Assembly: GCA_016204255.1 (NCBI GenBank)
Contig: JACQLA010000003.1
Location: 184,088 to 248,087, forward strand
Origin: Candidatus Microgenomates bacterium
GTDB taxonomy: Bacteria; Patescibacteriota; Microgenomatia; JACQLA01
DNA: 64,000 bases
Direction: 5' to 3'
Both the position numbers and the translations under genes were made by a program. The notes beneath the pieces are model-generated. The model was not told the DNA's origin. It ran no database searches and was given only the letters and a program-made list of their open reading frames with translations. How positions within the stretch are numbered: the first letter of the stretch is position 1; the number at the start of each line of letters is the position of its first letter. Below are positions 1,738-55,091 of this stretch, piece after piece.

Positions 1738-3786
1738 ATGCCTAGTTTTGTTCCATATATCTTACCTTTTTCTTTAGGAGCTTCTGTTCTTGCGCTTATT
1801 TATGGAAGTTTTTTGATCTGGCGAATTATTGCGCTTCCCAAGGGCGATAAAAAGATGACCGACATCGCCGAAGCGATTGCCGAAGGCGGATCGGCCTACC
1901 TAAAGAGGCAGTATACAATTGTCGCCTGGATCGCTCTTTTAATTTTCGTCATTTTAAGCTGGTTTTTGGGATTTGCCACCGGTGTTGGCTTTCTTTTGGG
2001 CGCCGGATTTTCAGCTTTGGCTGGTTTTGTGGGAATGAATATTTCCGTTCGGGCCAATGTTCGGACAGCGGAAGCAGCCAAAAAGGGGATAAAGGCCGCC
2101 CTAAATGTTGCCTTTCAGGGAGGATCGGTTACCGGTCTTTTCGTGGTCGGGTTAGGACTACTTTTGGTTGCGGGCTATTGGCTATTCCTGACGCAATTTT
2201 TGCAAACAACTATCGAACACGCTTTACGCGCTTTAATTGCTTTAGGTTTTGGGGGATCGCTGATTTCAGTTTTTGCCCGGCTTGGAGGCGGTATCTACAC
2301 TAAAGGTGCTGACGTGGGAACTGATATGGTCGGGAAAATTGAAAAAGGAATTCCCGAGGATGATCCCAGAAATCCGGGAGTCATCGCCGATCAGGTAGGG
2401 GATAATGTTGGTGACTGTGCGGGGATGGCTGCTGATCTTTTTGAAACCTATGTTGTAACGGCCGTAGCCACCATGCTTTTAGGGCATCTTATTTTTGGTG
2501 AAAACTTAGGCGTTATTCTTTACCCTTTAGCCATCGGTGGAGTGGCAATTATTGCTTCTTTACTTGGGACATTCTTTGTTGGGACAAACAAAACATCGGG
2601 TATCATGACGGCGCTTTATAAAGGCTTGGGCGCAGCGGTAGTTTTGGCCGTTATCCTTTTTTATCCCATTACTATCAATTTAATGGGAGGCAATCCTTAT
2701 TTTCCGGTGATGAACCTTTATTATTCATCCCTTCTTGGCCTTTTGACAACAGTAGGAATGGTTGTTATCACCGAATACTATACGGCCAAAAAATTCGGGC
2801 CGGTTTTAGGAATTGCCAAGTCTTCGGAAACCGGACACGGAACCAATATAATTGCCGGTCTTGCAAATTCCATGAAGTCAACTCTTTTACCGGTTCTTTT
2901 AATCGCCGGAGTAACATTGGCCTCATTTTCTTTGGCCGGGCTTTATGGTGTAACGATTGCCGCTATGTCGATGCTTTCACTAACGGGAATAATTATCGCT
3001 ATTGATTCGTTCGGACCGATAACTGACAACGCCGGCGGGATTGCGGAGATGGCCAATTTGGACGAGTCTGTTCGAAAAATAACTGACCCGTTAGATGCGG
3101 TAGGCAATACCACAAAAGCTATTACCAAAGGCTACGCCATTGCCTCAGCAGGACTGGCGGCTTTGGTACTTTTTGCATCTTACACTCAGGAATTAGGGCA
3201 AAAGGGACAGGCCGTTGCTCAAAATTTTGGTCAATTCTCCCTGTCGGATCCTAAAGTCCTGATCGGACTTTTTATTGGAGGAGCTCTACCTTATTTCTTT
3301 GGGGCCTTGGCCATGGAGGCGGTGGGTAAAGCGGGGATGGCCGTGGTTAGCGAGGTTCGAAGACAATTTAAAGAAATTAAAGGCTTGATGGAGGGAAAAG
3401 CCAAGCCCGAGTATGGCAAATGTGTCGATATTGTTACCAAAGCCGCTTTAAGAGAAATGATCGTGCCGGCTTTGATTCCGGTCTTAACCCCCATTTTGGT
3501 GGGTTTCATATTGGGACCTCAGGCACTCGGTGGACTTTTAATCGGAATTATTATCACCGGCCTTTTTGTCGCCATCTCGATGACCACCGGTGGCGCAGCC
3601 TGGGATAATGCCAAAAAATACATTGAAGAGGGGCACCTAGGTGGAAAGGGGTCATTTGCTCACCAAGCCGCGGTTACCGGCGACACCGTTGGCGATCCCT
3701 ATAAAGACACAGCCGGCCCTGCTATCAATCCGATGATTAAAGTGGCCAACATCGTGGCCCTGCTCATCGCCGGATTCTTAGTGTAA
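1738..3786 (+). CDS. hppA: Membrane-bound proton/sodium-translocating pyrophosphatase (H+-PPase)
   Basis: 682-aa polytopic membrane protein with the H+-PPase signatures [20 protein letters not shown] and [17 protein letters not shown]. An RBS (aaggag) lies 8 nt upstream of the ATG. Confidence 0.9.
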
Positions 3787-7598: not shown

Positions 7599-8150
7599 AT
7601 GTCTATTAAACAGGAAAGATTTATTAATGGTTTTGAAAAACCGCGGGAGGAATTACTTTCTCCAGGAGAGTTAGAAATTTTAAAACTCATGGCGCGCGGA
7701 TTAAGTGAAGCGGAAATTCATAAGGAATCAGGGATTCCTATTCAGCTTTTAAGACACCTTCTTTACCGCGATCCCGCCCATTACAAAAGTCCAAATGTAA
7801 AACAAAAGGGAATTCTTCCAAAACTCGGGGCTCAAAGTCGTGAACAAGCTGTCTTGAAAGCGCTTGATTTGGGTTTTTTAGATCTTGGAGAAATAGAACG
7901 AAAGTCTGGCTTTAATCTGGAAAGATACGCAGAGTTAGACGATAAAGAAACACAATTATTGAATGTGCTTGATGATTCCTCTCATTCTGGACGAAATCAG
8001 ATTCTCGCTGAAAGATTAGGCGTGGTAAGAGATACCGTTAAAGATCAATTGAGCAGTATCTACAGAAAATTAGAAGTTTCAAATAAGATGCAAGTCGCCC
8101 TTTTTCATCGAATTGTCAAATCAAAACCACCACTTCAGTTGCCAAATTAA
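7599..8150 (+). CDS. LuxR/GerE-type transcription regulator with two tandem HTH_LuxR domains (paralogue 1 of 3)
   Basis: N-terminal LSPGELEILKLMARGLSEAEI and C-terminal ETQLLNVLDDSSHSGRNQILAERLGVVRDTVKDQLSSIYRKLEV each match the LuxR HTH pattern. No receiver or ligand domain. Confidence 0.6.
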   Translation: MSIKQERFINGFEKPREELLSPGELEILKLMARGLSEAEIHKESGIPIQLLRHLLYRDPAHYKSPNVKQKGILPKLGAQSREQAVLKALDLGFLDLGEIERKSGFNLERYAELDDKETQLLNVLDDSSHSGRNQILAERLGVVRDTVKDQLSSIYRKLEVSNKMQVALFHRIVKSKPPLQLPN

Positions 8151-8222
8151 TCAAAATGGCCTATAATTGAGCATCAATTAGACGAGCCGCGTAAGACGCG
8201 GCGAAGTATAATAGAAAACCTT

Positions 8223-8759
8223 ATGACCATAGAAAGATACATACCGACTACTGCAGTTGAAGGCGAACAAAGCAGCCTTTTAACCTCCCGACAAATCGAG
8301 ATCCTTAAATTAGTAACCTATGGTTTGACTTATAAGGAAATCGCTGCGAGACTATTAATTTCAGATCAGACCGTCAAAAACCATTTAACTCAACGTTCAG
8401 AATTTGGATCGATCCCTAAAGGAATCTTTGATCGACTTAATGTACAAACTAGAGAACAGGCTGTTTTAAAAGGACTCGAATTAGGTTATTTAGATTTAAA
8501 CGATATTGTCGAAAATTCCGGTTTACAACTCAACAAAATTGTGTTACTCACCCCCAGAGAAATTGATGTTATACACAAGCTTTCTGATCCCGAATGTGTA
8601 GGGAATAATAAAGTCACTGCTAAATCGCTAGGAATTTCTCCCGCCACATTGCATTATCATATGGAAAATATCTGCAAAAAATTAGAGGTCAAAAACCGAA
8701 TTCAGGCGATGGTTTTTCACCTGGCAGTTAAAAGAGAATTGGGGGTAGTAAATGAGTAG
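8223..8759 (+). CDS. LuxR/GerE-type double-HTH regulator (paralogue 2 of 3)
   Basis: SRQIEILKLVTYGLTYKEIAARLLISDQTVKNHL plus a second C-terminal HTH. Shares the TREQAVLKGLELGYLDL linker motif with its neighbours. Confidence 0.6.
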   Translation: MTIERYIPTTAVEGEQSSLLTSRQIEILKLVTYGLTYKEIAARLLISDQTVKNHLTQRSEFGSIPKGIFDRLNVQTREQAVLKGLELGYLDLNDIVENSGLQLNKIVLLTPREIDVIHKLSDPECVGNNKVTAKSLGISPATLHYHMENICKKLEVKNRIQAMVFHLAVKRELGVVNE

Positions 8760-9288
8760 AGAAAGAGTTATAGATTATCCCCGCCAGAGCGTGTTAAGCC
8801 CGCAGAAAAGAGAAATTCTTGAGCGTGTAGCCATTGGTCAAACCAATGCTGAAATCGCCAGGGCATTTGGTAATGCGCTCGCAACAGTTGTAAGTCATCT
8901 GCGCGGGGAAAATAACTCAATTCAGCATCGATTAGGAGCACGAAGGCAAGGCCAGGCAATCCTTAAGGCGTTTGAAATGGGGGAGCTGGATTTAATAACA
9001 ATAGTTGAAAAATGTAACTTTGACTTTGACCGCTATAAAAAACTGATGCCAAGAGAAATTCAAGTTTTAGACAAACTTACCAATCCTTCTCGTCGAATGG
9101 GAAACAAAGATATCGCAGATGTAATGCATATCGGCCGCGATGCCGTCCGACTTTCTTTATACAGCATCGGGAAAAAATTAGGAGTCAGTAAGAGGGAAGA
9201 GATGATAGTTTTTCATCTGGCGGCTACAACTTATCCTTTTGAAAAATCGGTAAGATACAATGGGGTAGTTGAAGAATCGGGTTTTTAG
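8752..9288 (+). CDS. LuxR/GerE-type double-HTH regulator (paralogue 3 of 3)
   Basis: Same architecture. Overlaps paralogue 2 by 8 nt (translational coupling). The stop abuts the convergent purD stop. Confidence 0.55.
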   Translation: MSRERVIDYPRQSVLSPQKREILERVAIGQTNAEIARAFGNALATVVSHLRGENNSIQHRLGARRQGQAILKAFEMGELDLITIVEKCNFDFDRYKKLMPREIQVLDKLTNPSRRMGNKDIADVMHIGRDAVRLSLYSIGKKLGVSKREEMIVFHLAATTYPFEKSVRYNGVVEESGF

Positions 9289-47240: not shown

Positions 47241-48135
47241 AAAAAGAGCAATTATTGCCTTAGTGATTGCTGCCCTGATCTGGGGCGCGGCTGTTCCAAT
47301 TTTTAAATGGTCGCTTGGCAATATTCCCCCATTTTCTTTAGCTTTTTTGCGATTTTTTCTGGCTGCCTTTTTAATTTTTCCCCTGGCCAAAAACCATCTT
47401 AAAATCTCTAGTAAAGATATCGATCGTATTGTGCTGATAAGTCTTTTAGGAATCACCTTAAATATTTCTTTTTTCTTCCAGGCACTAAGATATACCACCG
47501 CTTTAAACGCCGCCGTTCTTTTAACCACCGCCCCCATCCTTACCCTTTTTACCGCTCATATTTTTTTGAAAGAGAGGTTGAGACCAATTTTAATCCTGAG
47601 CTTATCTCTGGCAGTTTTAGGAATGATTGTTTTAATTATCAATCCCATTCGCGAAAACGGCATTGACTCCCATCTTCTGGGTAACTTCTTAATGCTTTTA
47701 GCAGTTTTATCCTGGGTGGGCTACGAAATTACCGCTAAAAAACTTTTCGTCTCGTATCCGGCCATTACCATCGTTTTTTATTCATTCTTAATTGGCGCTT
47801 TTTCTTTTTTCCCCGGATTTTACGCGGAGTACATCATGTCTCCCGAGTGGGTTTTAGATTTAGATATTAAGGGTATCGTCGGTATTGCCTATGGCGCATT
47901 TTTTTCCTCAACCATAGCTTATCTTGCCTGGGATTTCGGCCTTTCCAAACTGCCGGCATCAGAAGTTAGCCTCTTCAGCTCGTTACAACCCCTAGCTGCG
48001 GCAGTTATCGCCTTGCCCCTTCTTGGTGAGAAAATCACCTTTCCCTTTCTGATCGGTGCCTTTCTTATCCTGACCGGAGTCTTTTTGTTGGAGAAAAAAC
48101 GCCTCTTGACCCATTCTCGCCTTCAAAACAGTTGA
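47224..48135 (+). CDS. EamA/DMT-superfamily transporter
   Basis: Ten TM helices in two EamA repeats. 303 aa. Confidence 0.75.
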   Translation: MPSNSKKRAIIALVIAALIWGAAVPIFKWSLGNIPPFSLAFLRFFLAAFLIFPLAKNHLKISSKDIDRIVLISLLGITLNISFFFQALRYTTALNAAVLLTTAPILTLFTAHIFLKERLRPILILSLSLAVLGMIVLIINPIRENGIDSHLLGNFLMLLAVLSWVGYEITAKKLFVSYPAITIVFYSFLIGAFSFFPGFYAEYIMSPEWVLDLDIKGIVGIAYGAFFSSTIAYLAWDFGLSKLPASEVSLFSSLQPLAAAVIALPLLGEKITFPFLIGAFLILTGVFLLEKKRLLTHSRLQNS

Positions 48136-49349
48136 CTTCAGCAAGTCAGAAAAGTAAAATATCCTATAAAAATTGTGCGATGAGAAAAGAACAAGTTCTA
48201 GCATACAAACCAAATAAACGATTTAATCCTGTATTTCAGTCCGCAGAAGACCCAAGAGTTGCCTTTGTCGACAAAAATACGGGAGCATCATACAGAAGCG
48301 TACGAAAGGAATTGCTTACTAGAGAGCAGGAAATAGAAATTGCGCAAAATATTGAACGCGGTATTGTTGCCTACCACCTCCTAAGAAAACACGACCCGAT
48401 AAATATTAATCAATCAATAGAAGGAGTGATTCTGGATCGTGTAGCCGCAGAAAGTGAGGATACAAAAACTCCCGAATTTAGAAATAAAGTTGATGGGAAT
48501 CTTTCAGATCTGCGGAAAAATTTAGTCATCGAAGACCTTTTCCCAGAGATCAATGAGAATGAGCTTTCTGAAAAGGATTTAGAAGAATTAAAAAAAATGG
48601 TCGCTAGAGCTAAAGAATCCCGCGATCAGGCAGTCGAACATAATCATGGACTGGTTGTGGAAACCGCTAAATTTTATTATAGAAAAAAAGGTTCTTTAAC
48701 AATGGATGACCTCATCCAGATAGGTAAACTTGGATTTTTAAAAGGTCTGGCAAGATTTGATTGGCGCTCAGGCAATAAATTTTCAACCTACATTCCTCAC
48801 TGGGTAAAACATATGATTACTGAAGCAATAGGTAAAGATGGCTCAATAATTGCTCTGCCGAGTCATCGCATAGACTGGGAAAGGGTATATGAAAAGGCCT
48901 ACGATTTCCTTCTCGACAAAATGGGACAACCTCCTACTGATAGCGAAACTGCTCAATTTCTAGAGTGGCCACTCTCAAGAATCGAGTTAATAAAAAGCGC
49001 GCCAAAAGCGAATATTTCATTGGAGGCACCCAAATACGTAAAGGGCAAAGAACCGGTTGCAATTGGAAGCATGATCGAAGACCCAAACGACAACGATAAT
49101 CCTATATTATATGCGAATCATGCAGGTTTAGTTAGAGATTTAGAAATAGCTTTAAAATCTTTAAACCCAAGATGGAGAAAGATTTTAATGATGCGCAGTG
49201 GCATCGGCTACGATCACGAATATACTCTTGAAGAGGTTGGTAAAGAATTCGGTGTTACTCGCGAACGTATTCGTCAAATTGAAGCCCAAGCTCAGGAAAA
49301 AATATCCAAGAAATTTTCCCATTTACAGAATCATCTCTGGAACGATTAA
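48132..49349 (+). CDS. RpoD-like sigma-70 factor, paralogue 1 (alternative start ATG 48180)
   Basis: Region 2 (HNHGLVVETAKFYY..DLIQIGKLGFLKGLARFDWRSGNKFSTYIPHWVKHMI). Region 4 (YTLEEVGKEFGVTRERIRQIEAQA). Confidence 0.75.
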   Translation: MTSASQKSKISYKNCAMRKEQVLAYKPNKRFNPVFQSAEDPRVAFVDKNTGASYRSVRKELLTREQEIEIAQNIERGIVAYHLLRKHDPININQSIEGVILDRVAAESEDTKTPEFRNKVDGNLSDLRKNLVIEDLFPEINENELSEKDLEELKKMVARAKESRDQAVEHNHGLVVETAKFYYRKKGSLTMDDLIQIGKLGFLKGLARFDWRSGNKFSTYIPHWVKHMITEAIGKDGSIIALPSHRIDWERVYEKAYDFLLDKMGQPPTDSETAQFLEWPLSRIELIKSAPKANISLEAPKYVKGKEPVAIGSMIEDPNDNDNPILYANHAGLVRDLEIALKSLNPRWRKILMMRSGIGYDHEYTLEEVGKEFGVTRERIRQIEAQAQEKISKKFSHLQNHLWND

Positions 49350-49434: not shown

Positions 49435-50601
49435 ATGGCCGTACAACACGAACAATTTAATAGAAGCAAAACGATAATTCATCCGGATTCTTCCGAGGTT
49501 CTTCCGTATAGTTCTTTGGTCAACCCGGATGAGCGGGAATCTAATAATGGAGATCTTCTTAGTTTTGAAGAAGAACAGACCACCTTTAGTGAAATTGAAA
49601 AGGGATTAGTCAGCTGCGATGATCTTCGCAAAAAGGGATTTAAAATTGAAGCTAACATGCTTGATTATATCCTTCACTTTAAAGCTGGCGGCGATGGGGC
49701 TAAAAAAAGAAATCCTGAAGAAGTAGTCGCGGAGATTAAAAATCAAATAATGGACGAGGAAGCTCCTTTTATCTCTATTATGGAATTATTTTCCGATGGT
49801 CAAGTAATTAAAGCAAAAACTGAGCAGATTAAAAAAGCGACTGCGGCTGTTAATAGACTTATTGAAGCCAATATAGGGCTGGTTAAAAAGATTGCTGGGC
49901 AAGAATATGAAAAAAACGAGGGCTCAAATAGAGGAATTGATTTTAGGGATGTAGTCCAGGCTGGACTATTTAAAGGCATCCCTCAGGCTATTGGTGTTTT
50001 TAGATGGCGTGACGGATTAAAATTTTCTACTTGCGCGACATGGTGGATCCGATCAGCAGCTCAGAGGGAAATGGCTGGATCCCGAACAATCCATATCCCT
50101 TTTGGCGTTCAAGAGAAAGTTACTGGAGTTGACCACGCTAAATCAGATTTCCAAATGACTCATGGTCGGGAACCTTCAACTGAAGAACTCCAGACATACG
50201 GGTTCTCTAAAGAAGAAGTTGAGCGAGTTGATAGAGCTCGCAGAATGGATCCGGGTTCTTTTGATCAACCGATAAATTCTCCCGAGGCAGATAAGGAATT
50301 AAGTCGCGCCTATTTCATCGCCGATGATGATCCAGAAACACAACCAGAAACTGCAGTCGAGCAAACCGTTGGCGAAGAAAAAGTGGAAGAACTATTGAGC
50401 CTTCTTACTAACCGGGAAAGAATGGTTGTGGAATTCCATCTAGGATTAAATAATCAAAAAAAACATACACTGGAGGAAATCGGAATTATACTCGGAATTA
50501 CTAGAGAACGCGCCCGACAAATAGAAGCAAAGGCTTTTAAAAAGATGGTCACCTCTGAAAAGGCTGCGGAGCTTAGAGATCTAGTAGATTTTCAAGACTA
50601 A
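49435..50601 (+). CDS. RpoD-like sigma-70 factor, paralogue 2
   Basis: Region 2 (NIGLVKKIAGQEY..DVVQAGLFKGIPQAIGVFRWRDGLKFSTCATWWIRSAA). Region 4 (HTLEEIGIILGITRERARQIEAKA). Confidence 0.75.
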   Translation: MAVQHEQFNRSKTIIHPDSSEVLPYSSLVNPDERESNNGDLLSFEEEQTTFSEIEKGLVSCDDLRKKGFKIEANMLDYILHFKAGGDGAKKRNPEEVVAEIKNQIMDEEAPFISIMELFSDGQVIKAKTEQIKKATAAVNRLIEANIGLVKKIAGQEYEKNEGSNRGIDFRDVVQAGLFKGIPQAIGVFRWRDGLKFSTCATWWIRSAAQREMAGSRTIHIPFGVQEKVTGVDHAKSDFQMTHGREPSTEELQTYGFSKEEVERVDRARRMDPGSFDQPINSPEADKELSRAYFIADDDPETQPETAVEQTVGEEKVEELLSLLTNRERMVVEFHLGLNNQKKHTLEEIGIILGITRERARQIEAKAFKKMVTSEKAAELRDLVDFQD

Positions 50602-50605
50602 TCTC

Positions 50606-50634
50606 TTGCAATTCAAACCTATTATAAGTATAAT
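50606..50634 (+). promoter_or_regulatory. Sigma-70 promoter (TTGCAA-17-TATAAT) for rpmE-prfA
   Basis: Near-consensus hexamers, 40 nt upstream of the rpmE start. Confidence 0.5.
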
Positions 50635-50675: not shown

Positions 50676-50996
50676 ATGAAAAAGAATATTCATCCACAAT
50701 GGTATCCAAATGCACAAGTAATTTGTGCGTGCGGTAATGTTTTTACAATCGGTTCAACCACGCCGGAAATTCATACCGAGGTGTGTTCCCGTTGCCACCC
50801 CTTTTATACGGGCCAGCAAAGATTTATCGACACTTTGGGTCGCGTTGAAAAATTCCAGCAGAAGGTAAAGTTTGCTCAAGAACACGCTCCTGAGATTTCG
50901 GCCAAAAAAGCCAAGAAAGAACGACTGAAAAAAGAAGAAGCCCCTAAATCCTTCAGAGATTTCAAAGCAATGCTCTCGCAACAAAAACAAGGATAA
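50676..50996 (+). CDS. rpmE: Ribosomal protein L31 with Lys-rich C-terminal extension
   Basis: [10 protein letters not shown].., the CxCG....C..CHPFYTG zinc-ribbon pattern, and an extra roughly 40-aa basic tail. Confidence 0.85.
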
Positions 50997-51004
50997 AACT
51001 TTTT

Positions 51005-51709
51005 ATGGCTTCCAATATTTCTGCGATTATTTTGGAAATCAGGCCGGCTGCCGGAGGTTCGGAGGCCAAAATTTGGGCCCAAGACCTTTTACGCATGTAT
51101 CTTCGTTTTGCTCAAAACCAGGGATACAAAACCCAGCTTTTAGATGAAGGGGTTTTAAAAATTGCAGGATCGGATGCTTTTGAAAAACTGAAATTTGAGT
51201 CCGGCGTGCATCGCGTCCAAAGAATTCCGGAGACGGAAAAAAGGGGCCGGATTCATACTTCAACGGCTACCGTGGCCGTTTTGCCGGAAATCCCGGAAAC
51301 CGAAATTCATGTCCGTCCAGAAGATTGTGAATGGGAGTTTTACCGTGCTTCTTCTCAAGGCGGACAAAATGTCCAAAAGGTTTCCTCGGCTGTCAGACTT
51401 CATCATAAACCGACAGGGGTTGTTGTAACTTGTCAAACTGAACGCGATCAATGGCAAAACAGACAAAGCGCTCTTTCACTTTTAAGATCTAAGCTTTGGG
51501 AAAAACAGGAAGAGGAAAAAGAAAAAACTGTCGCTGGCTATCGATCATTAATCGGGCGGGGTATGAGAGCGGAAAAAATCCGGACATTCAATTTTCCTCA
51601 AAACCGCGTTACAGATCACCGTATTAACAAGTCATGGCACAATCTTGAGCAGATTGTAGACGGACGTTTGGAACCGGTGGTTAGTACCGTCACCGCCACT
51701 CTTTCTTAA
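51005..51709 (+). CDS. Class-I peptide chain release factor, RF1-like, lacking N-terminal domain 1
   Basis: Begins at the RF domain-2 block (AIILEIRPAAGGSEAKIWAQDLLRMY). P-x-T-type tripeptide region HRVQRIPETEKRGRIHTSTATVAV, GGQ motif SSQGGQNVQK, 234 aa. RF1 homologues are about 360 aa. Confidence 0.75.
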   Translation: MASNISAIILEIRPAAGGSEAKIWAQDLLRMYLRFAQNQGYKTQLLDEGVLKIAGSDAFEKLKFESGVHRVQRIPETEKRGRIHTSTATVAVLPEIPETEIHVRPEDCEWEFYRASSQGGQNVQKVSSAVRLHHKPTGVVVTCQTERDQWQNRQSALSLLRSKLWEKQEEEKEKTVAGYRSLIGRGMRAEKIRTFNFPQNRVTDHRINKSWHNLEQIVDGRLEPVVSTVTATLS

Positions 51710-52872
51710 GGCGCCTCCCCTAAAGTAACTGACAATTTTGATTCTACGCCATTTCGCCAACTGGTTAATTCAACCCGATCCCCCACCTTTTTTTTGGAAA
51801 TAATTTGGGCTAAATCCCCCTCATTTTCTCGAATGTTTTTACCATCAATTTTGGTAATAATATCTTTCTCTTTAATTCCCGATTTATCTGCCGGCGAATC
51901 TTGCGTAACTTCTACTACATATGCTCCTTCAGGCACGTCGTTTAAAAGAGCGGTATTCCGACTAATCATTTTGTAACTTACTCCCAAATAGGCGCGGGAG
52001 AACTTACCGGTTTGTTCAAAATTTACCAATGAGTCTTTAATTAAATTTATGGGCAAAGCAAAACCGATATTTTGTCCTTCGGCAGCCACTGCGACGTTAA
52101 TGCCTACCACCTGTCCGGCGGAGTTTAAAAGTGGACCGCCGGAATTTCCGGGATTTATGGCGGCATCTGTTTGAATTACATCATCCAGTCTTTCTGCCGC
52201 CCCTTCAAAAGGTGAGCCGGCCGTAATCCCCCGCCCAAGTCCTGAAACAACTCCTGTTGTTACGGTATTGCGAAATTCGCCTAAAGCAGTTCCAATAGCA
52301 ATCACGAATTGACCAACCTCAAGTTTGGAAGAATCACCCAATTCAACCGGCTTAAGATTCGAGGCATCGATTTTTAAAATTGCCAAATCATTGGCTGTAT
52401 CCCGATAAATTTTCTGAACCTGATAAACCTTTTCGTCGGAAGTAACAACCTTATACTTACCAGTGGTGTCGGAAACTACATGCTTATTAGTAACAATCAT
52501 TCCGTCAGAAGAAATAATAAAACCCGAGCCGATGTCCTGTTCAATTTTCTTTTCCTGAAGTTGTGGCTGCTGTGGCCGAAGAATACCAAATGGGTCAAAC
52601 GGGTTAATTTCAAAAGGTTGGCTCACCTGTTGTTTTTCCATTCCAATTGTTACCACCGATGGCCCCACCTTTTTCACAACATCTATTACTACCGATTCCT
52701 CAGTTACAATCTTCACCTTTTCCTGGCCAGGGAGAAACTGATTTTCTGTTTTTGGAATTTCAAGTCGAGGAAGACGCTGGCTCAAAGTGTCCCAACCACC
52801 AAAAAGTCCGGAAGAAATACCAATAGCCACAAGTACAACAAGTATTGAAACGAGAATAAAATTTTTTTTCAT
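51706..52872 (-). CDS. HtrA/DegP-family serine endoprotease with PDZ domain
   Basis: Catalytic GNSGGPLLN, trypsin-like His/Asp blocks and a C-terminal PDZ. N-terminal TM anchor. Confidence 0.85.
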   Translation of the reverse strand: MKKNFILVSILVVLVAIGISSGLFGGWDTLSQRLPRLEIPKTENQFLPGQEKVKIVTEESVVIDVVKKVGPSVVTIGMEKQQVSQPFEINPFDPFGILRPQQPQLQEKKIEQDIGSGFIISSDGMIVTNKHVVSDTTGKYKVVTSDEKVYQVQKIYRDTANDLAILKIDASNLKPVELGDSSKLEVGQFVIAIGTALGEFRNTVTTGVVSGLGRGITAGSPFEGAAERLDDVIQTDAAINPGNSGGPLLNSAGQVVGINVAVAAEGQNIGFALPINLIKDSLVNFEQTGKFSRAYLGVSYKMISRNTALLNDVPEGAYVVEVTQDSPADKSGIKEKDIITKIDGKNIRENEGDLAQIISKKKVGDRVELTSWRNGVESKLSVTLGEAP

Positions 52873-54857: not shown

Positions 54858-55091
54858 TTAAATTCTTGCGACGAAAGGCAAGAGGCTCAAATGGCGAGCA
54901 CGCTTCACCGCGATCGTTAGTCTTCGCTGATGTTTTGCGCAAGTTCCGGTTTTTGAGCGATCTAAAATCTTGCCTCGTTCTGAAATAAAACGGCGTAAAA
55001 CCTCGTCGGCCTTAAAATCCGGCAACGTTTTATTTTCACAAAAATAACAAACTTGGCGTATGGGACGCTTTTTAAAAACTTTTTTATACAT
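54858..55091 (-). CDS. rpsR: Ribosomal protein S18
   Basis: [28 protein letters not shown] signature. 77 aa. Confidence 0.9.

What the first reader, a model, noticed from the sequence alone, without database searches (positions are those of the whole stretch)
51005..51709. Class-I release factor lacking domain 1, encoded directly after rpmE
The ORF starts at the equivalent of E. coli RF1 residue ~108 (..RAGTGGDEA.., here AIILEIRPAAGGSEA). It keeps the codon-recognition P-x-T-like tripeptide (PET) and the GGQ loop. The upstream 8 nt belong to the rpmE-prfA spacer, so no domain-1 coding sequence exists in any frame. Domain 1 contacts the L7/L12 stalk and RF3. Its loss suggests an altered termination cycle. 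It is reminiscent of, but not identical to, PrfH, because the codon-recognition motif is retained.
Basis: partly seen in the sequence, partly recalled or inferred. Interest (0 to 1): 0.55.

Follow-up and report, generated by a model that had tools for sequence, protein, structure and literature searches.

The report
Release factor 1 without domain 1
This gene is the organism's normal stop-codon-reading release factor RF1, but it naturally lacks the whole N-terminal domain, a trait shared by at least two major branches of the ultrasmall "candidate phyla radiation" bacteria, while the one lineage checked (Microgenomates) keeps that domain in its sister factor RF2.

Summary
ORF 51005..51709 (+) encodes a 234-aa class-I release factor made of domains 2, 3 and 4 only. 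It scores as RF1, well above RF2 and PrfH. It keeps the RF1 decoding residues (GGSEA tip, Q72, P75-E76-T77, H84-T85) and GGQ. It starts 8 nt after rpmE, and no frame upstream can encode domain 1.

It is neither a misassembly nor a one-off.
- Four independent assemblies carry the same locus.
- All 120 nearest homologues are 223-246 aa.
- All 80 GTDB species loci recovered have a shortened RF1, and 77 have rpmE within 600 nt upstream.
- Levy-/Daviesbacteria keep only the last helix of domain 1, which looks like an intermediate state.
- A second search found the same architecture throughout Parcubacteria.

RF2 of Microgenomates is full length (330-345 aa) and retains domain 1. TGA is a used stop codon in this window.

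Best reading: this is the orthologous housekeeping RF1. It terminates at UAA/UAG without the contact that domain 1 makes with the L11 stalk and RF3, consistent with reports that domain-1-deleted E. coli RF1 works. RF3, L11 and PrmC status could not be tested.

I found no description of this in the searchable literature. It is a new natural variant of a known protein, of moderate interest.

The parts
50606..50634 (+). Promoter-like site (TTGCAA, 17 nt spacer, TATAAT; 10 of 12 matches), 42 nt upstream of rpmE. Candidate promoter of an rpmE-prfA operon.
   Evidence: This is a consensus match only: 3 sites were found in the region against 2.2 expected from shuffles.
50676..50996 (+). rpmE, ribosomal protein L31, 106 aa, with a C-terminal extension of about 40 aa
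   Evidence: Pfam Ribosomal_L31 E = 5.6e-29 over residues 1-63. rpmE lies within 600 nt upstream of prfA in 77 of the 80 GTDB species loci; the extension is present in nearly all of them (median about 100 aa, range 73-117).
50997..51004 (+). 8-nt rpmE-prfA spacer (AACTTTTT)
51005..51709 (+). prfA, release factor 1 lacking domain 1 (234 aa; domains 2, 3 and 4 only)
   Evidence: The AlphaFold2 model (pLDDT 78) matches ribosome-bound open RF1 with TM-score 0.81.
51053..51067 (+). GGSEA (residues 17-21): the tip of helix alpha5, which reads U1 of the stop codon in canonical RF1
   Evidence: G17, G18, E20 and A21 are invariant in 50 homologues. The role is taken from established RF1-ribosome structures (my own knowledge).
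51146..51151 (+). Site of the 10-residue deletion of the domain-2 beta-hairpin, between E48 and G49
   Evidence: The hairpin is deleted in 118 of 118 Microgenomates RF1s scored, present in nearly all (about 71 of 75) full-length RF1 representatives scored, and present in about 100 of 120 Parcubacteria-type short RF1s.
51209..51265 (+). Decoding segment HRVQRIPETEKRGRIHTST, including Q72, P75-E76-T77 (the PxT 'anticodon'), I83, H84 and T85
   Evidence: H69, R70, V71, Q72, R73, P75, T77, E78, R82, H84, T85, S86 and T87 are invariant.
51359..51367 (+). GGQ peptidyl-tRNA hydrolysis motif (residues 119-121)
   Evidence: Present in all 80 species loci and in all 120 hits of the Parcubacteria-type search.
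51554..51601 (+). Switch-loop region GRGMRAEKIRTFNFPQ (residues 184-199). It is RF1-type; RF2 has a shorter WGSQIRSYV here.
   Evidence: pLDDT is below 50 in the free model. My own interpretation is that this fits a segment that becomes ordered only on the ribosome.
51706..52872 (-). Convergent HtrA-like serine protease (Trypsin_2 + PDZ). Its 3' end overlaps the prfA stop by 4 nt. It marks the end of the operon. No prmC follows prfA.

Best explanation
This is the orthologous, housekeeping release factor 1 (prfA) of a Microgenomates (Patescibacteria/CPR) bacterium. Evolution has reduced it to the three domains that do the chemistry.

Shown:
- Domains 2 and 4 carry the complete RF1 decoding set: the alpha5 tip GG-x-E, Q72, PxT, and I83-H84-T85.
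- Domain 3 carries GGQ.
- The predicted fold superposes on the open, ribosome-bound form of RF1.

Inferred:
- The protein enters the A site at UAA and UAG, opens, and places GGQ in the peptidyl-transferase centre, as canonical RF1 does.
- It lacks domain 1. In canonical factors that domain reaches the L11/GTPase-associated region and is needed to stimulate nucleotide exchange on RF3. The protein therefore cannot use that contact, and must leave the post-termination ribosome spontaneously or through subunit rotation and recycling factors.

Evolutionary picture:
- Domain 1 appears to have been lost stepwise. Levy-/Daviesbacteria keep only its last helix.
- The short form is fixed across Microgenomates and Parcubacteria.
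- RF2 of Microgenomates keeps domain 1. This lineage has therefore dispensed with domain 1 for RF1 only.
For: RF1 identity:
- NCBIfam scores: RF1 316 bits, RF2 215, PrfH 68, ArfB 48.
- PDB best hits are RF1s, E = 3e-75.
- RF1-type HRVQR-PxT-E...RIHTST and IRT(Y/F)NFPQNRVTDHR, against RF2's HRLVR-SPF and IRSYV.
- 66 invariant columns in 50 homologues, including every decoding and catalytic residue.
- The AlphaFold2 model gives TM 0.81 to ribosome-bound T. thermophilus and E. coli RF1, and about 0.53 to the compact crystal forms.

Real and conserved:
- The identical locus occurs in 4 independent assemblies.
- The 120 nearest homologues are all 223-246 aa at 67-100% identity, named Microgenomates, Roizman- and Shapirobacteria.
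- All 80 GTDB species loci carry a shortened RF1; rpmE lies within 600 nt upstream in 77 of them. In 71 the conserved motif starts at residue 8-27. In 8 Levy-/Daviesbacteria-type loci 56-78 residues precede it. In one locus (L045) the longer call overlaps rpmE and is probably an artefact.
- In Levy-/Daviesbacteria those residues align to the last helix of domain 1.
- Parcubacteria-type hits: 120 of 120 are 230-255 aa. In three loci examined, in-frame stops lie 2-34 codons upstream.

Orthology:
- The reduced and the fully truncated forms sit at the same rpmE-linked locus.
- There is only one RF gene per locus.

RF2:
- TGA ends 17 of 65 ORFs in the window and ends 13 of the 80 GTDB-locus prfA genes themselves.
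- Microgenomates RF2s (120 hits) have a median length of 336 aa, all with SPF and GGQ and an intact hairpin. They score 416 bits on TIGR00020 against a cutoff of 370.
- Domain 3 of RF1 and RF2 within Microgenomates is 56% identical. That is more than either shares with its orthologues elsewhere (41-47%). This implies that the two genes co-reside and exchange sequence.

Function without domain 1 has precedent. Domain 1 does not affect codon specificity and is not needed for in vitro release. Truncated E. coli RF1 functions in vivo, but domain 1 is needed to stimulate RF3 (PMC1586002, citing Mora et al. 2003). RF3 is absent from 72 of 191 bacterial genomes (PMC1780047).
Against: - No biochemical data exist for this protein.
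- I could not show, for a single genome, that no second, full-length prfA exists. I also could not show that the short RF1 and the full-length RF2 lie in the same genome. The evidence is at the level of candidate phylum (Roizmanbacteria) plus the gene-conversion signature.
'RF3-independent' is therefore inference.
- The protein falls below the curated RF1 cutoffs (316 against 400, and 312 against 423). NCBI names these proteins 'PCRF domain-containing protein' or 'release factor-like protein'.
- A reviewer comment in PMC1586002 recalls that E. coli RF1 is inactive on L11-less ribosomes. How a factor that cannot reach L11 copes is unexplained.
Confidence: 0.85

Rival explanations
1. It is a specialised paralogue, such as a PrfH-like or rescue-type factor acting on unusual signals or damaged ribosomes. 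It would work beside a normal full-length RF1 encoded elsewhere in the genome.
For: - Like PrfH and ArfB, it lacks domain 1.
- It fails the curated RF1 cutoffs.
- Whole genomes could not be scanned for a second prfA.
Against: - It scores 316 bits on RF1 and only 68 on PrfH and 48 on ArfB.
- It keeps the full stop-codon decoding set, which is invariant across the clade.
- It sits next to rpmE, not rtcB.
- Levy-/Daviesbacteria have a partly reduced RF1 at the same locus, which indicates continuity with canonical prfA.
- The nearest full-length RF1 representatives are only about 50% identical. I regard that as ordinary inter-phylum distance, although these representatives carry no taxonomic labels.
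- No second RF gene lies within +-10 kb in the 84 prfA loci scanned (80 GTDB species plus 4 assemblies of the window locus).
Confidence: 0.05
2. Domain 1 is not lost but split off. It would be encoded as a separate small protein, or its role taken over by another protein such as the C-terminal extension of L31 encoded just upstream, and it would work in trans.
For: - L31 here has an unusual, conserved extension of about 40 aa, and the two genes are only 8 nt apart.
- Domain 1 is a loosely attached helical bundle.
- The genome outside the window was not searched.
Against: - An HMM built from 66 canonical domain-1 sequences detects the residual helix in all 8 Levy-/Daviesbacteria loci (E = 3e-6 to 0.025). 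It finds nothing in the window, in 8 kb further upstream, or in the other 76 prfA loci held (72 GTDB species loci plus 4 assemblies of the window locus) (best E = 0.33). It also finds nothing in 5 Parcubacteria-type loci.
- The L31 extension is equally present in lineages that still have part of domain 1. It is absent from the Parcubacteria-type L31s (72 and 82 aa) that precede short RF1s.
- L31 sits far from the L11 stalk on the ribosome (my own knowledge).
Confidence: 0.04
3. It is an artefact or a decaying gene, arising from a mis-called start, a frameshift, a chimeric assembly or a pseudogene.
For: It comes from metagenome-assembled genomes. Many odd-length RF entries in the databases are contig-edge fragments or read-through fusions.
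Against: - The same sequence occurs in four assemblies from different runs.
- Upstream stops are present in all frames.
- More than 240 distinct short homologues occur in two CPR classes, with catalytic and decoding residues invariant.
- The gene is intact in 80 species genomes.
Confidence: 0.01

Closest known systems
Canonical bacterial RF1 (PrfA; NCBIfam NF001859 / TIGR00019; e.g. T. thermophilus RF1 on the 70S, PDB 4V63)
   Same: - Domains 2, 3 and 4.
- PxT, the GG-x-E tip, and Q/I/H/T decoding residues.
- GGQ and an RF1-type switch loop.
- 46-49% identity to Thermus and Thermotoga RF1 in the structure-based alignments, and fold TM-score 0.81.
   Different: - It lacks the whole N-terminal three-helix domain 1 (about 105 aa).
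- It lacks a 10-residue hairpin of domain 2.
- It falls below the curated family cutoffs.
- prmC is not adjacent.
Engineered E. coli RF1 lacking domain 1 (Mora, Zavialov, Ehrenberg & Buckingham 2003, as summarised in PMC1586002)
   Same: The architecture is the same. That construct keeps codon specificity and in vitro release activity and functions in vivo, but cannot stimulate RF3.
   Different: - That protein is a laboratory deletion, whereas this one is a natural form fixed in whole classes of bacteria.
- The original paper could not be read here, so the summary is second-hand.
PrfH / RFH (TIGR03072; PDB 7SA4, 9MOR)
   Same: A natural class-I RF homologue without domain 1 that has a GGQ domain.
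   Different: - PrfH has its own altered decoding region rather than PxT.
- It is always paired with an upstream rtcB-type gene.
- It is about 200 aa long.
- The window protein scores 68 bits against the PrfH cutoff of 167 and has neither of the first two features.
ArfB / ICT1 / C12orf65 rescue hydrolases
   Same: They have a GGQ domain and no domain 1.
   Different: [quoted passage not shown] The window protein has intact decoding domains.
RF2 of the same lineage (Microgenomates prfB, e.g. L153:3704-4711, P0271-P0390)
   Same: The fold is the same. Domain 3 is unusually similar (56% identity), which suggests RF1-RF2 gene conversion of the kind described by Ishikawa et al. 2015.
   Different: RF2 keeps domain 1 and the domain-2 hairpin, has SPF, passes its curated cutoff, and lies in a dnaG | LytR_C - prfB - ftsE - ftsX neighbourhood.

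Membership tests
RF1 (PrfA) | RF-1 (GGQ) domain plus the codon-recognition part of the PCRF domain | tested here: met
   Pfam RF-1 at 120.5 bits over residues 98-206. PCRF at 122 bits, matching model positions 101-194 only.
RF1 (PrfA) | N-terminal helical domain 1 (PCRF model positions 1 to about 100) | tested here: not met
   There is no match to the first 100 PCRF positions, no upstream coding capacity, and no hit by the domain-1 HMM.
RF1 (PrfA) | P-x-T tripeptide and associated RF1 decoding residues | tested here: met
   P75-E76-T77, Q72, I83-H84-T85 and G17-G18-x-E20 are present and invariant in the clade. One species in 80 has PQS.
RF1 (PrfA) | GGQ motif | tested here: met
   Residues 119-121. 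Present in all homologues examined.
RF1 (PrfA) | Score above the curated equivalog cutoff (NF001859 400 bits; TIGR00019 423 bits) | tested here: not met
   Scores are 316.4 and 311.8 bits. The shortfall corresponds to the missing domain. RF1 is still the best-scoring family by 100 bits.
RF1 (PrfA) | Orthologous position and descent from canonical prfA | tested here: met
   rpmE lies within 600 nt upstream of prfA in 77 of 80 species loci. Forms with a partly reduced domain 1 occupy the same locus.
RF1 (PrfA) | Peptide release specifically at UAA and UAG | not testable with these tools
   This needs a biochemical assay.
PrfH (RFH) | Score above the TIGR03072 cutoff (166.65 bits) | tested here: not met
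   68 bits, covering the GGQ domain only.
PrfH (RFH) | Operon with an upstream rtcB-type gene | tested here: not met
   The neighbours are two sigma-70 genes, rpmE, and a convergent htrA-like gene.
PrfH (RFH) | Absence of domain 1 | tested here: met
RF2 (PrfB) | SP(F/Y) tripeptide and score above the TIGR00020 cutoff (370 bits) | tested here: not met
   The protein has PET, not SPF, and scores 215 bits.
ArfB / ICT1 | GGQ domain alone with a basic C-terminal tail and no decoding domain | tested here: not met
   Decoding domains 2 and 4 are present. The ArfB model matches only residues 99-134.

The most novel reading that the evidence does not exclude
In CPR/Patescibacteria, termination is stop-codon-asymmetric. 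UAA/UAG stops would be read by a three-domain RF1 that cannot touch the L11 stalk or RF3. UGA (and UAA) stops would be read by an RF2 that still carries domain 1. This would imply one of two things. Either there is an RF3- and stalk-independent release and recycling pathway dedicated to RF1. Or there is an unrecognised CPR-specific partner or ribosomal feature that replaces domain 1. Either way, domain 1 would have an RF2-specific function that is independent of what RF1 needs.
Probability: 0.15. Interest if true: 0.75.

Novelty: new variant of a known kind. Interest (0 to 1): 0.5.

Why it matters
Domain 1 of class-I release factors is present in virtually all textbook bacteria. It is the handle by which RF3 and the L11 stalk act on the factor. 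Its dispensability was known only from E. coli deletion constructs.

Here, lineages making up a large share of bacterial diversity appear to have run that experiment naturally, at least for RF1. In Microgenomates, RF2 was left intact. This has three consequences:
- It offers a natural system for asking what domain 1 is for, and why RF1 and RF2 differ in their need for it.
- It explains why annotation pipelines label these essential genes 'PCRF domain-containing protein'. Completeness and metabolic surveys may therefore wrongly score CPR genomes as lacking prfA.
- It adds a translation-factor reduction to the known ribosome reductions of CPR bacteria: no uL30, frequent loss of bL9, and a missing 23S helix 78 in Microgenomates (PMC9297842).

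Tried and rejected
- **Second RF gene.** I looked in the window and in +-10 kb of 84 prfA loci. None was found.
- **PrmC and RF3 in the window.** I searched for the NPPY motif and the translational-GTPase G1 motif. Neither is present.
- **IMG/VR scan for any class-I RF.** It returned 52 loci. All complete ORFs are full length, mostly RF2 on low-GC contigs longer than 100 kb, and none looked like a short CPR-type RF. This gave no route to a Microgenomates RF2.
- **secA-prfB synteny.** There is no secA in any held locus.
- **Extending the window.** I looked up edge genes. 8 kb further upstream holds type IV pilus genes and gyrB, with no RF. The downstream look-up found no record.
- **Odd-length RF1 representatives (260-640 aa).** Most carry no added domain and are probably truncated or mis-called gene predictions; three show a PrmC_N segment and one an ABC-transporter segment after the RF1 part. 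None was informative here.
- **Route that worked for RF2.** I built an artificial query, the window RF1 backbone with RF2 motifs, aligned with real RF2s. RF2-specific patterns then selected the candidates in the metagenome scan. Two divergent low-GC hits (L153, L160) turned out to be Roizmanbacteria-type RF2. The chimera was used only as bait. All conclusions rest on the real sequences.
- **Same-genome link.** I tried to tie the short RF1 and the full-length RF2 to one contig by matching contig lengths between hit lists. No match was found.
- **L11, L10, L12, L1 and RF3.** tblastn with the E. coli proteins against 1.49 Mb of held Microgenomates DNA gave no hits, so their status is unknown.
- **Literature.** Eight full-text searches found no paper describing a domain-1-less RF1 in CPR, Patescibacteria, Microgenomates or Parcubacteria. 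Neither the release-factor survey of Burroughs & Aravind 2019 nor the CPR ribosome study of Tsurumaki 2022 mentions it in the passages retrieved. Mora et al. 2003 is not held.
- **Idea rejected.** I considered whether the L31 extension is a remnant of, or replacement for, domain 1. It has no HMM similarity, and its presence does not correlate with the state of domain 1.
Full report
**What is there**

The window has 41% G+C and is densely coding. Its genes include gyrB, an H+-pyrophosphatase, gyrA, folD, purine-synthesis genes, and a ribosomal protein S18-like ORF at 54858-55091(-) (identified by eye).

The ORF 51005..51709 (+) runs from ATG to TAA and encodes 234 aa.
- Pfam finds an RF-1 (GGQ) domain at residues 98-206. 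Only the C-terminal half of the PCRF domain is matched (model positions 101-194 of 194, at residues 7-90).
- NCBIfam ranks RF1 first: NF001859 at 316 bits and TIGR00019 at 312 bits. RF2 scores 215, PrfH 68 and ArfB 48. The RF1 alignment covers model positions 105-340 of 347. The score stays below the curated cutoffs of 400 and 423 because about 105 positions have no counterpart.
- Against solved structures, residues 8-228 align to T. maritima RF1 residues 88-319 (E = 3e-75), and residues 9-228 align to E. coli RF1 residues 112-343. Each alignment has a single 10-residue gap in domain 2.

Immediately upstream is rpmE (L31, 50676..50996), followed by an 8-nt spacer. The prfA reading frame is closed 19 codons upstream, inside rpmE, and no frame can encode a domain 1. 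A promoter-like site precedes rpmE. A convergent htrA-like gene overlaps the prfA stop codon by 4 nt. The unit therefore looks like a bicistronic rpmE-prfA operon, and no prmC follows it.

**Is it real?**

Yes. The same protein in the same gene order is found in four independent assemblies from different sequencing runs. NCBI holds it as 'PCRF domain-containing protein [Candidatus Microgenomates bacterium]'.
- The 120 best database homologues (67-100% identity) are all 223-246 aa. Those that carry names come from Microgenomates, Roizmanbacteria, Shapirobacteria or 'Patescibacteria group'.
- In a scan of one genome per GTDB species, 80 loci were recovered from Gottesman-, Woese-, Levy- and Daviesbacteria and other Microgenomates.
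- rpmE lies within 600 nt upstream in 77 of the 80.
- In 71 of them the conserved E-(I/V)-R-x-G-x-GG-x-E-A motif begins at residue 8-27 of the longest possible ORF.

**An evolutionary series**

Eight loci, all Levy- or Daviesbacteria-type, encode RF1s of 281-310 aa with 56-78 residues before that motif. One further long call (L045, 295 aa) starts at a GTG inside rpmE and is probably an artefact.
- Aligned with canonical RF1s, these residues correspond to the last long helix of domain 1. The first two helices are gone.
- An HMM built from 66 canonical domain-1 sequences detects this remnant in all eight (E = 3e-6 to 0.025). It finds nothing in the window, in 8 kb further upstream, or in the other 76 prfA loci held (best E = 0.33).
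- The 10-residue domain-2 hairpin is missing from every Microgenomates RF1, of both types. It is present in nearly all full-length RF1 representatives scored (about 71 of 75).

A third protein search started from P0128, a 232-aa RF1 only 49% identical to the window protein.
- It returned 120 proteins of 230-255 aa, named Zambryski-, Lipton- and Colwellbacteria, Paceibacterota and Minisyncoccia. These are Parcubacteria.
- Their motif starts at residue 4-19. All have PxT and GGQ, and most keep the hairpin.
- In three such loci the in-frame stop lies 2-34 codons upstream, and no domain 1 is detectable.

Domain-1-less RF1 is therefore a widespread trait of Patescibacteria, not a curiosity of this genome. 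The hairpin deletion is a separate, Microgenomates-wide event.

**Is the protein competent?**

All residues that canonical RF1 uses are present, and they are invariant among 50 clade members: G17, G18, E20 (alpha5 tip), Q72, P75, T77, E78, R82, H84, T85, and G119-G120-Q121. The middle residue of PxT varies freely, as it does in other bacteria. One species in 80 has PQS.

An AlphaFold2 model (mean pLDDT 78) matches ribosome-bound, open RF1 with TM-score 0.81. It matches the compact crystal forms with only about 0.53.

**What about RF2, RF3 and PrmC?**

TGA terminates 17 of 65 long ORFs in the window, and 13 of the 80 GTDB-locus prfA genes themselves. An RF2 activity is therefore required. No RF2 lies in the window or near any prfA locus.

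I retrieved Microgenomates RF2 with a bait alignment whose patterns were RF2-specific.
- Locus L153 carries a 335-aa RF2. Its 120 nearest homologues are named 'peptide chain release factor 2' of Roizmanbacteria or Microgenomates, and nearly all are 330-345 aa.
- They pass the curated RF2 cutoff (416 bits against 370). They carry SPF and GGQ, have about 105 residues before the GG-x-E motif, and keep the domain-2 hairpin.
- They lie in a conserved dnaG | LytR_C - prfB - ftsE - ftsX neighbourhood.

So RF2 keeps domain 1 in a lineage (Roizmanbacteria) whose RF1 is 225 aa (P0033). I could not place both genes on one contig.

There is indirect evidence that they co-reside. In domain 3, Microgenomates RF1 and RF2 are 56% identical to each other. 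They are only 41-47% identical to their orthologues elsewhere. In domains 2 and 4 the orthologues are the closer pair. This is the signature of RF1-RF2 gene conversion confined to domain 3, as described for Bacteroidia and Chloroflexi (PMC4530459).

RF3, PrmC and L11 were not found in any DNA I could reach, so their status is unknown.

**Mechanism**

Shown by sequence and model: an intact decoding superdomain and an intact catalytic domain of RF1 type.

Taken from the literature (PMC1586002 summarising Mora et al. 2003):
- Domain 1 does not influence codon specificity and is not needed for in vitro peptide release.
- Truncated RF1 functions in vivo.
- Domain 1 is required to stimulate nucleotide exchange on RF3.

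RF3 itself is missing from 72 of 191 bacterial genomes, including most small ones (PMC1780047).

Inferred: the Microgenomates factor terminates at UAA/UAG like any RF1, but it neither contacts the L11 region nor is recycled through RF3. The natural pattern, with RF1 truncated and RF2 intact, mirrors the E. coli result that RF1 tolerates the deletion better.

One point remains unexplained. E. coli RF1 is reported to depend on L11 (reviewer comment), yet this factor cannot reach L11.

**Rivals**

- A specialised paralogue of the PrfH or ArfB type is contradicted by the family scores, the intact decoding motifs, the rpmE synteny and the intermediate forms at the same locus.
- A split gene is not supported by the domain-1 HMM search near the locus.
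- The L31 extension does not track the state of domain 1.
- An artefact is excluded.

The remaining uncertainty is genome-wide: a second prfA or a distant domain-1 gene. Resolving it needs complete-genome scans.

**Novelty and verdict**

Eight full-text searches found no description of this truncation. Targeted reading also found none: a release-factor evolution survey (PMC6514570), a CPR ribosome study (PMC9297842) and a Patescibacteria perspective (PMC11665869) do not mention it in the passages retrieved. The sequences are public, but the annotation pipelines do not recognise most of them as RF1.

I rate it a new natural variant of a known protein family. The protein itself is well understood, the mechanism is unsurprising given the E. 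coli deletion work, and the interest is moderate. What gives it interest is its breadth across at least two major CPR classes and the RF1/RF2 asymmetry.

Noticed in passing
window 50676-50996 (rpmE); also L005-L084: L31 is 106 aa instead of the usual ~70. It carries a lysine-rich C-terminal extension that ends in a conserved PK(T/S)L(R/K)EML-like motif. The extension is present in nearly all Microgenomates loci (median about 100 aa), whatever the RF1 type. It is absent from the 72- and 82-aa L31s next to short RF1s of Parcubacteria type.
   Followed up: partly
window 51296-51538 (RF1 domain 3) compared with L153:3704-4711 and P0271-P0390: Domain 3 of RF1 and RF2 within Microgenomates is more similar (56%) than either is to its orthologues in other bacteria (41-47%). 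Domains 2 and 4 behave as ordinary orthologues. This suggests RF1-RF2 gene conversion or concerted evolution, a third case beside those of Ishikawa et al. 2015.
   Followed up: partly
L153:3704-4711, L219:6001-7020: Microgenomates prfB is a single uninterrupted ORF of about 336 aa, so it appears to lack the programmed +1 frameshift found in many bacteria. It sits in a conserved rpoD-dnaG | LytR_C - prfB - 146 aa - ftsE - ftsX - M23-like cluster.
   Followed up: no
window 48132-49349 and 49435-50601: Two tandem sigma-70-family genes (405 and 388 aa) lie directly upstream of rpmE. Both have long N-terminal regions with no domain match. The second one gives only a region-4 hit.
   Followed up: no
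window 7599-9288: Three consecutive small LuxR/GerE-type HTH proteins (183, 178 and 178 aa). Two of them give two separate GerE matches each.
   Followed up: no
window 1738-3786: A membrane H+-pyrophosphatase gene (682 aa, Pfam 876 bits) is inserted between gyrB and gyrA.
   Followed up: no
L057 (JADHUT010000001.1), RF1 residues about 75-77: One Microgenomates species has P-Q-S instead of the otherwise universal P-x-T decoding tripeptide.
   Followed up: no
L099, L104, L106 and related IMG/VR loci: On very AT-rich viral contigs of 145-550 kb, RF2-like genes carry SPY instead of SPF. They also have an insertion of about 10 residues in domain 3 after the GGQ helix (...YMYTDPDTxxxE...).
   Followed up: no
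L138:4961-5329 (8 kb upstream of the window start): A gene with the '23S_rRNA_IVP' domain sits between two type IV pilus ATPase genes in the same organism.
   Followed up: no
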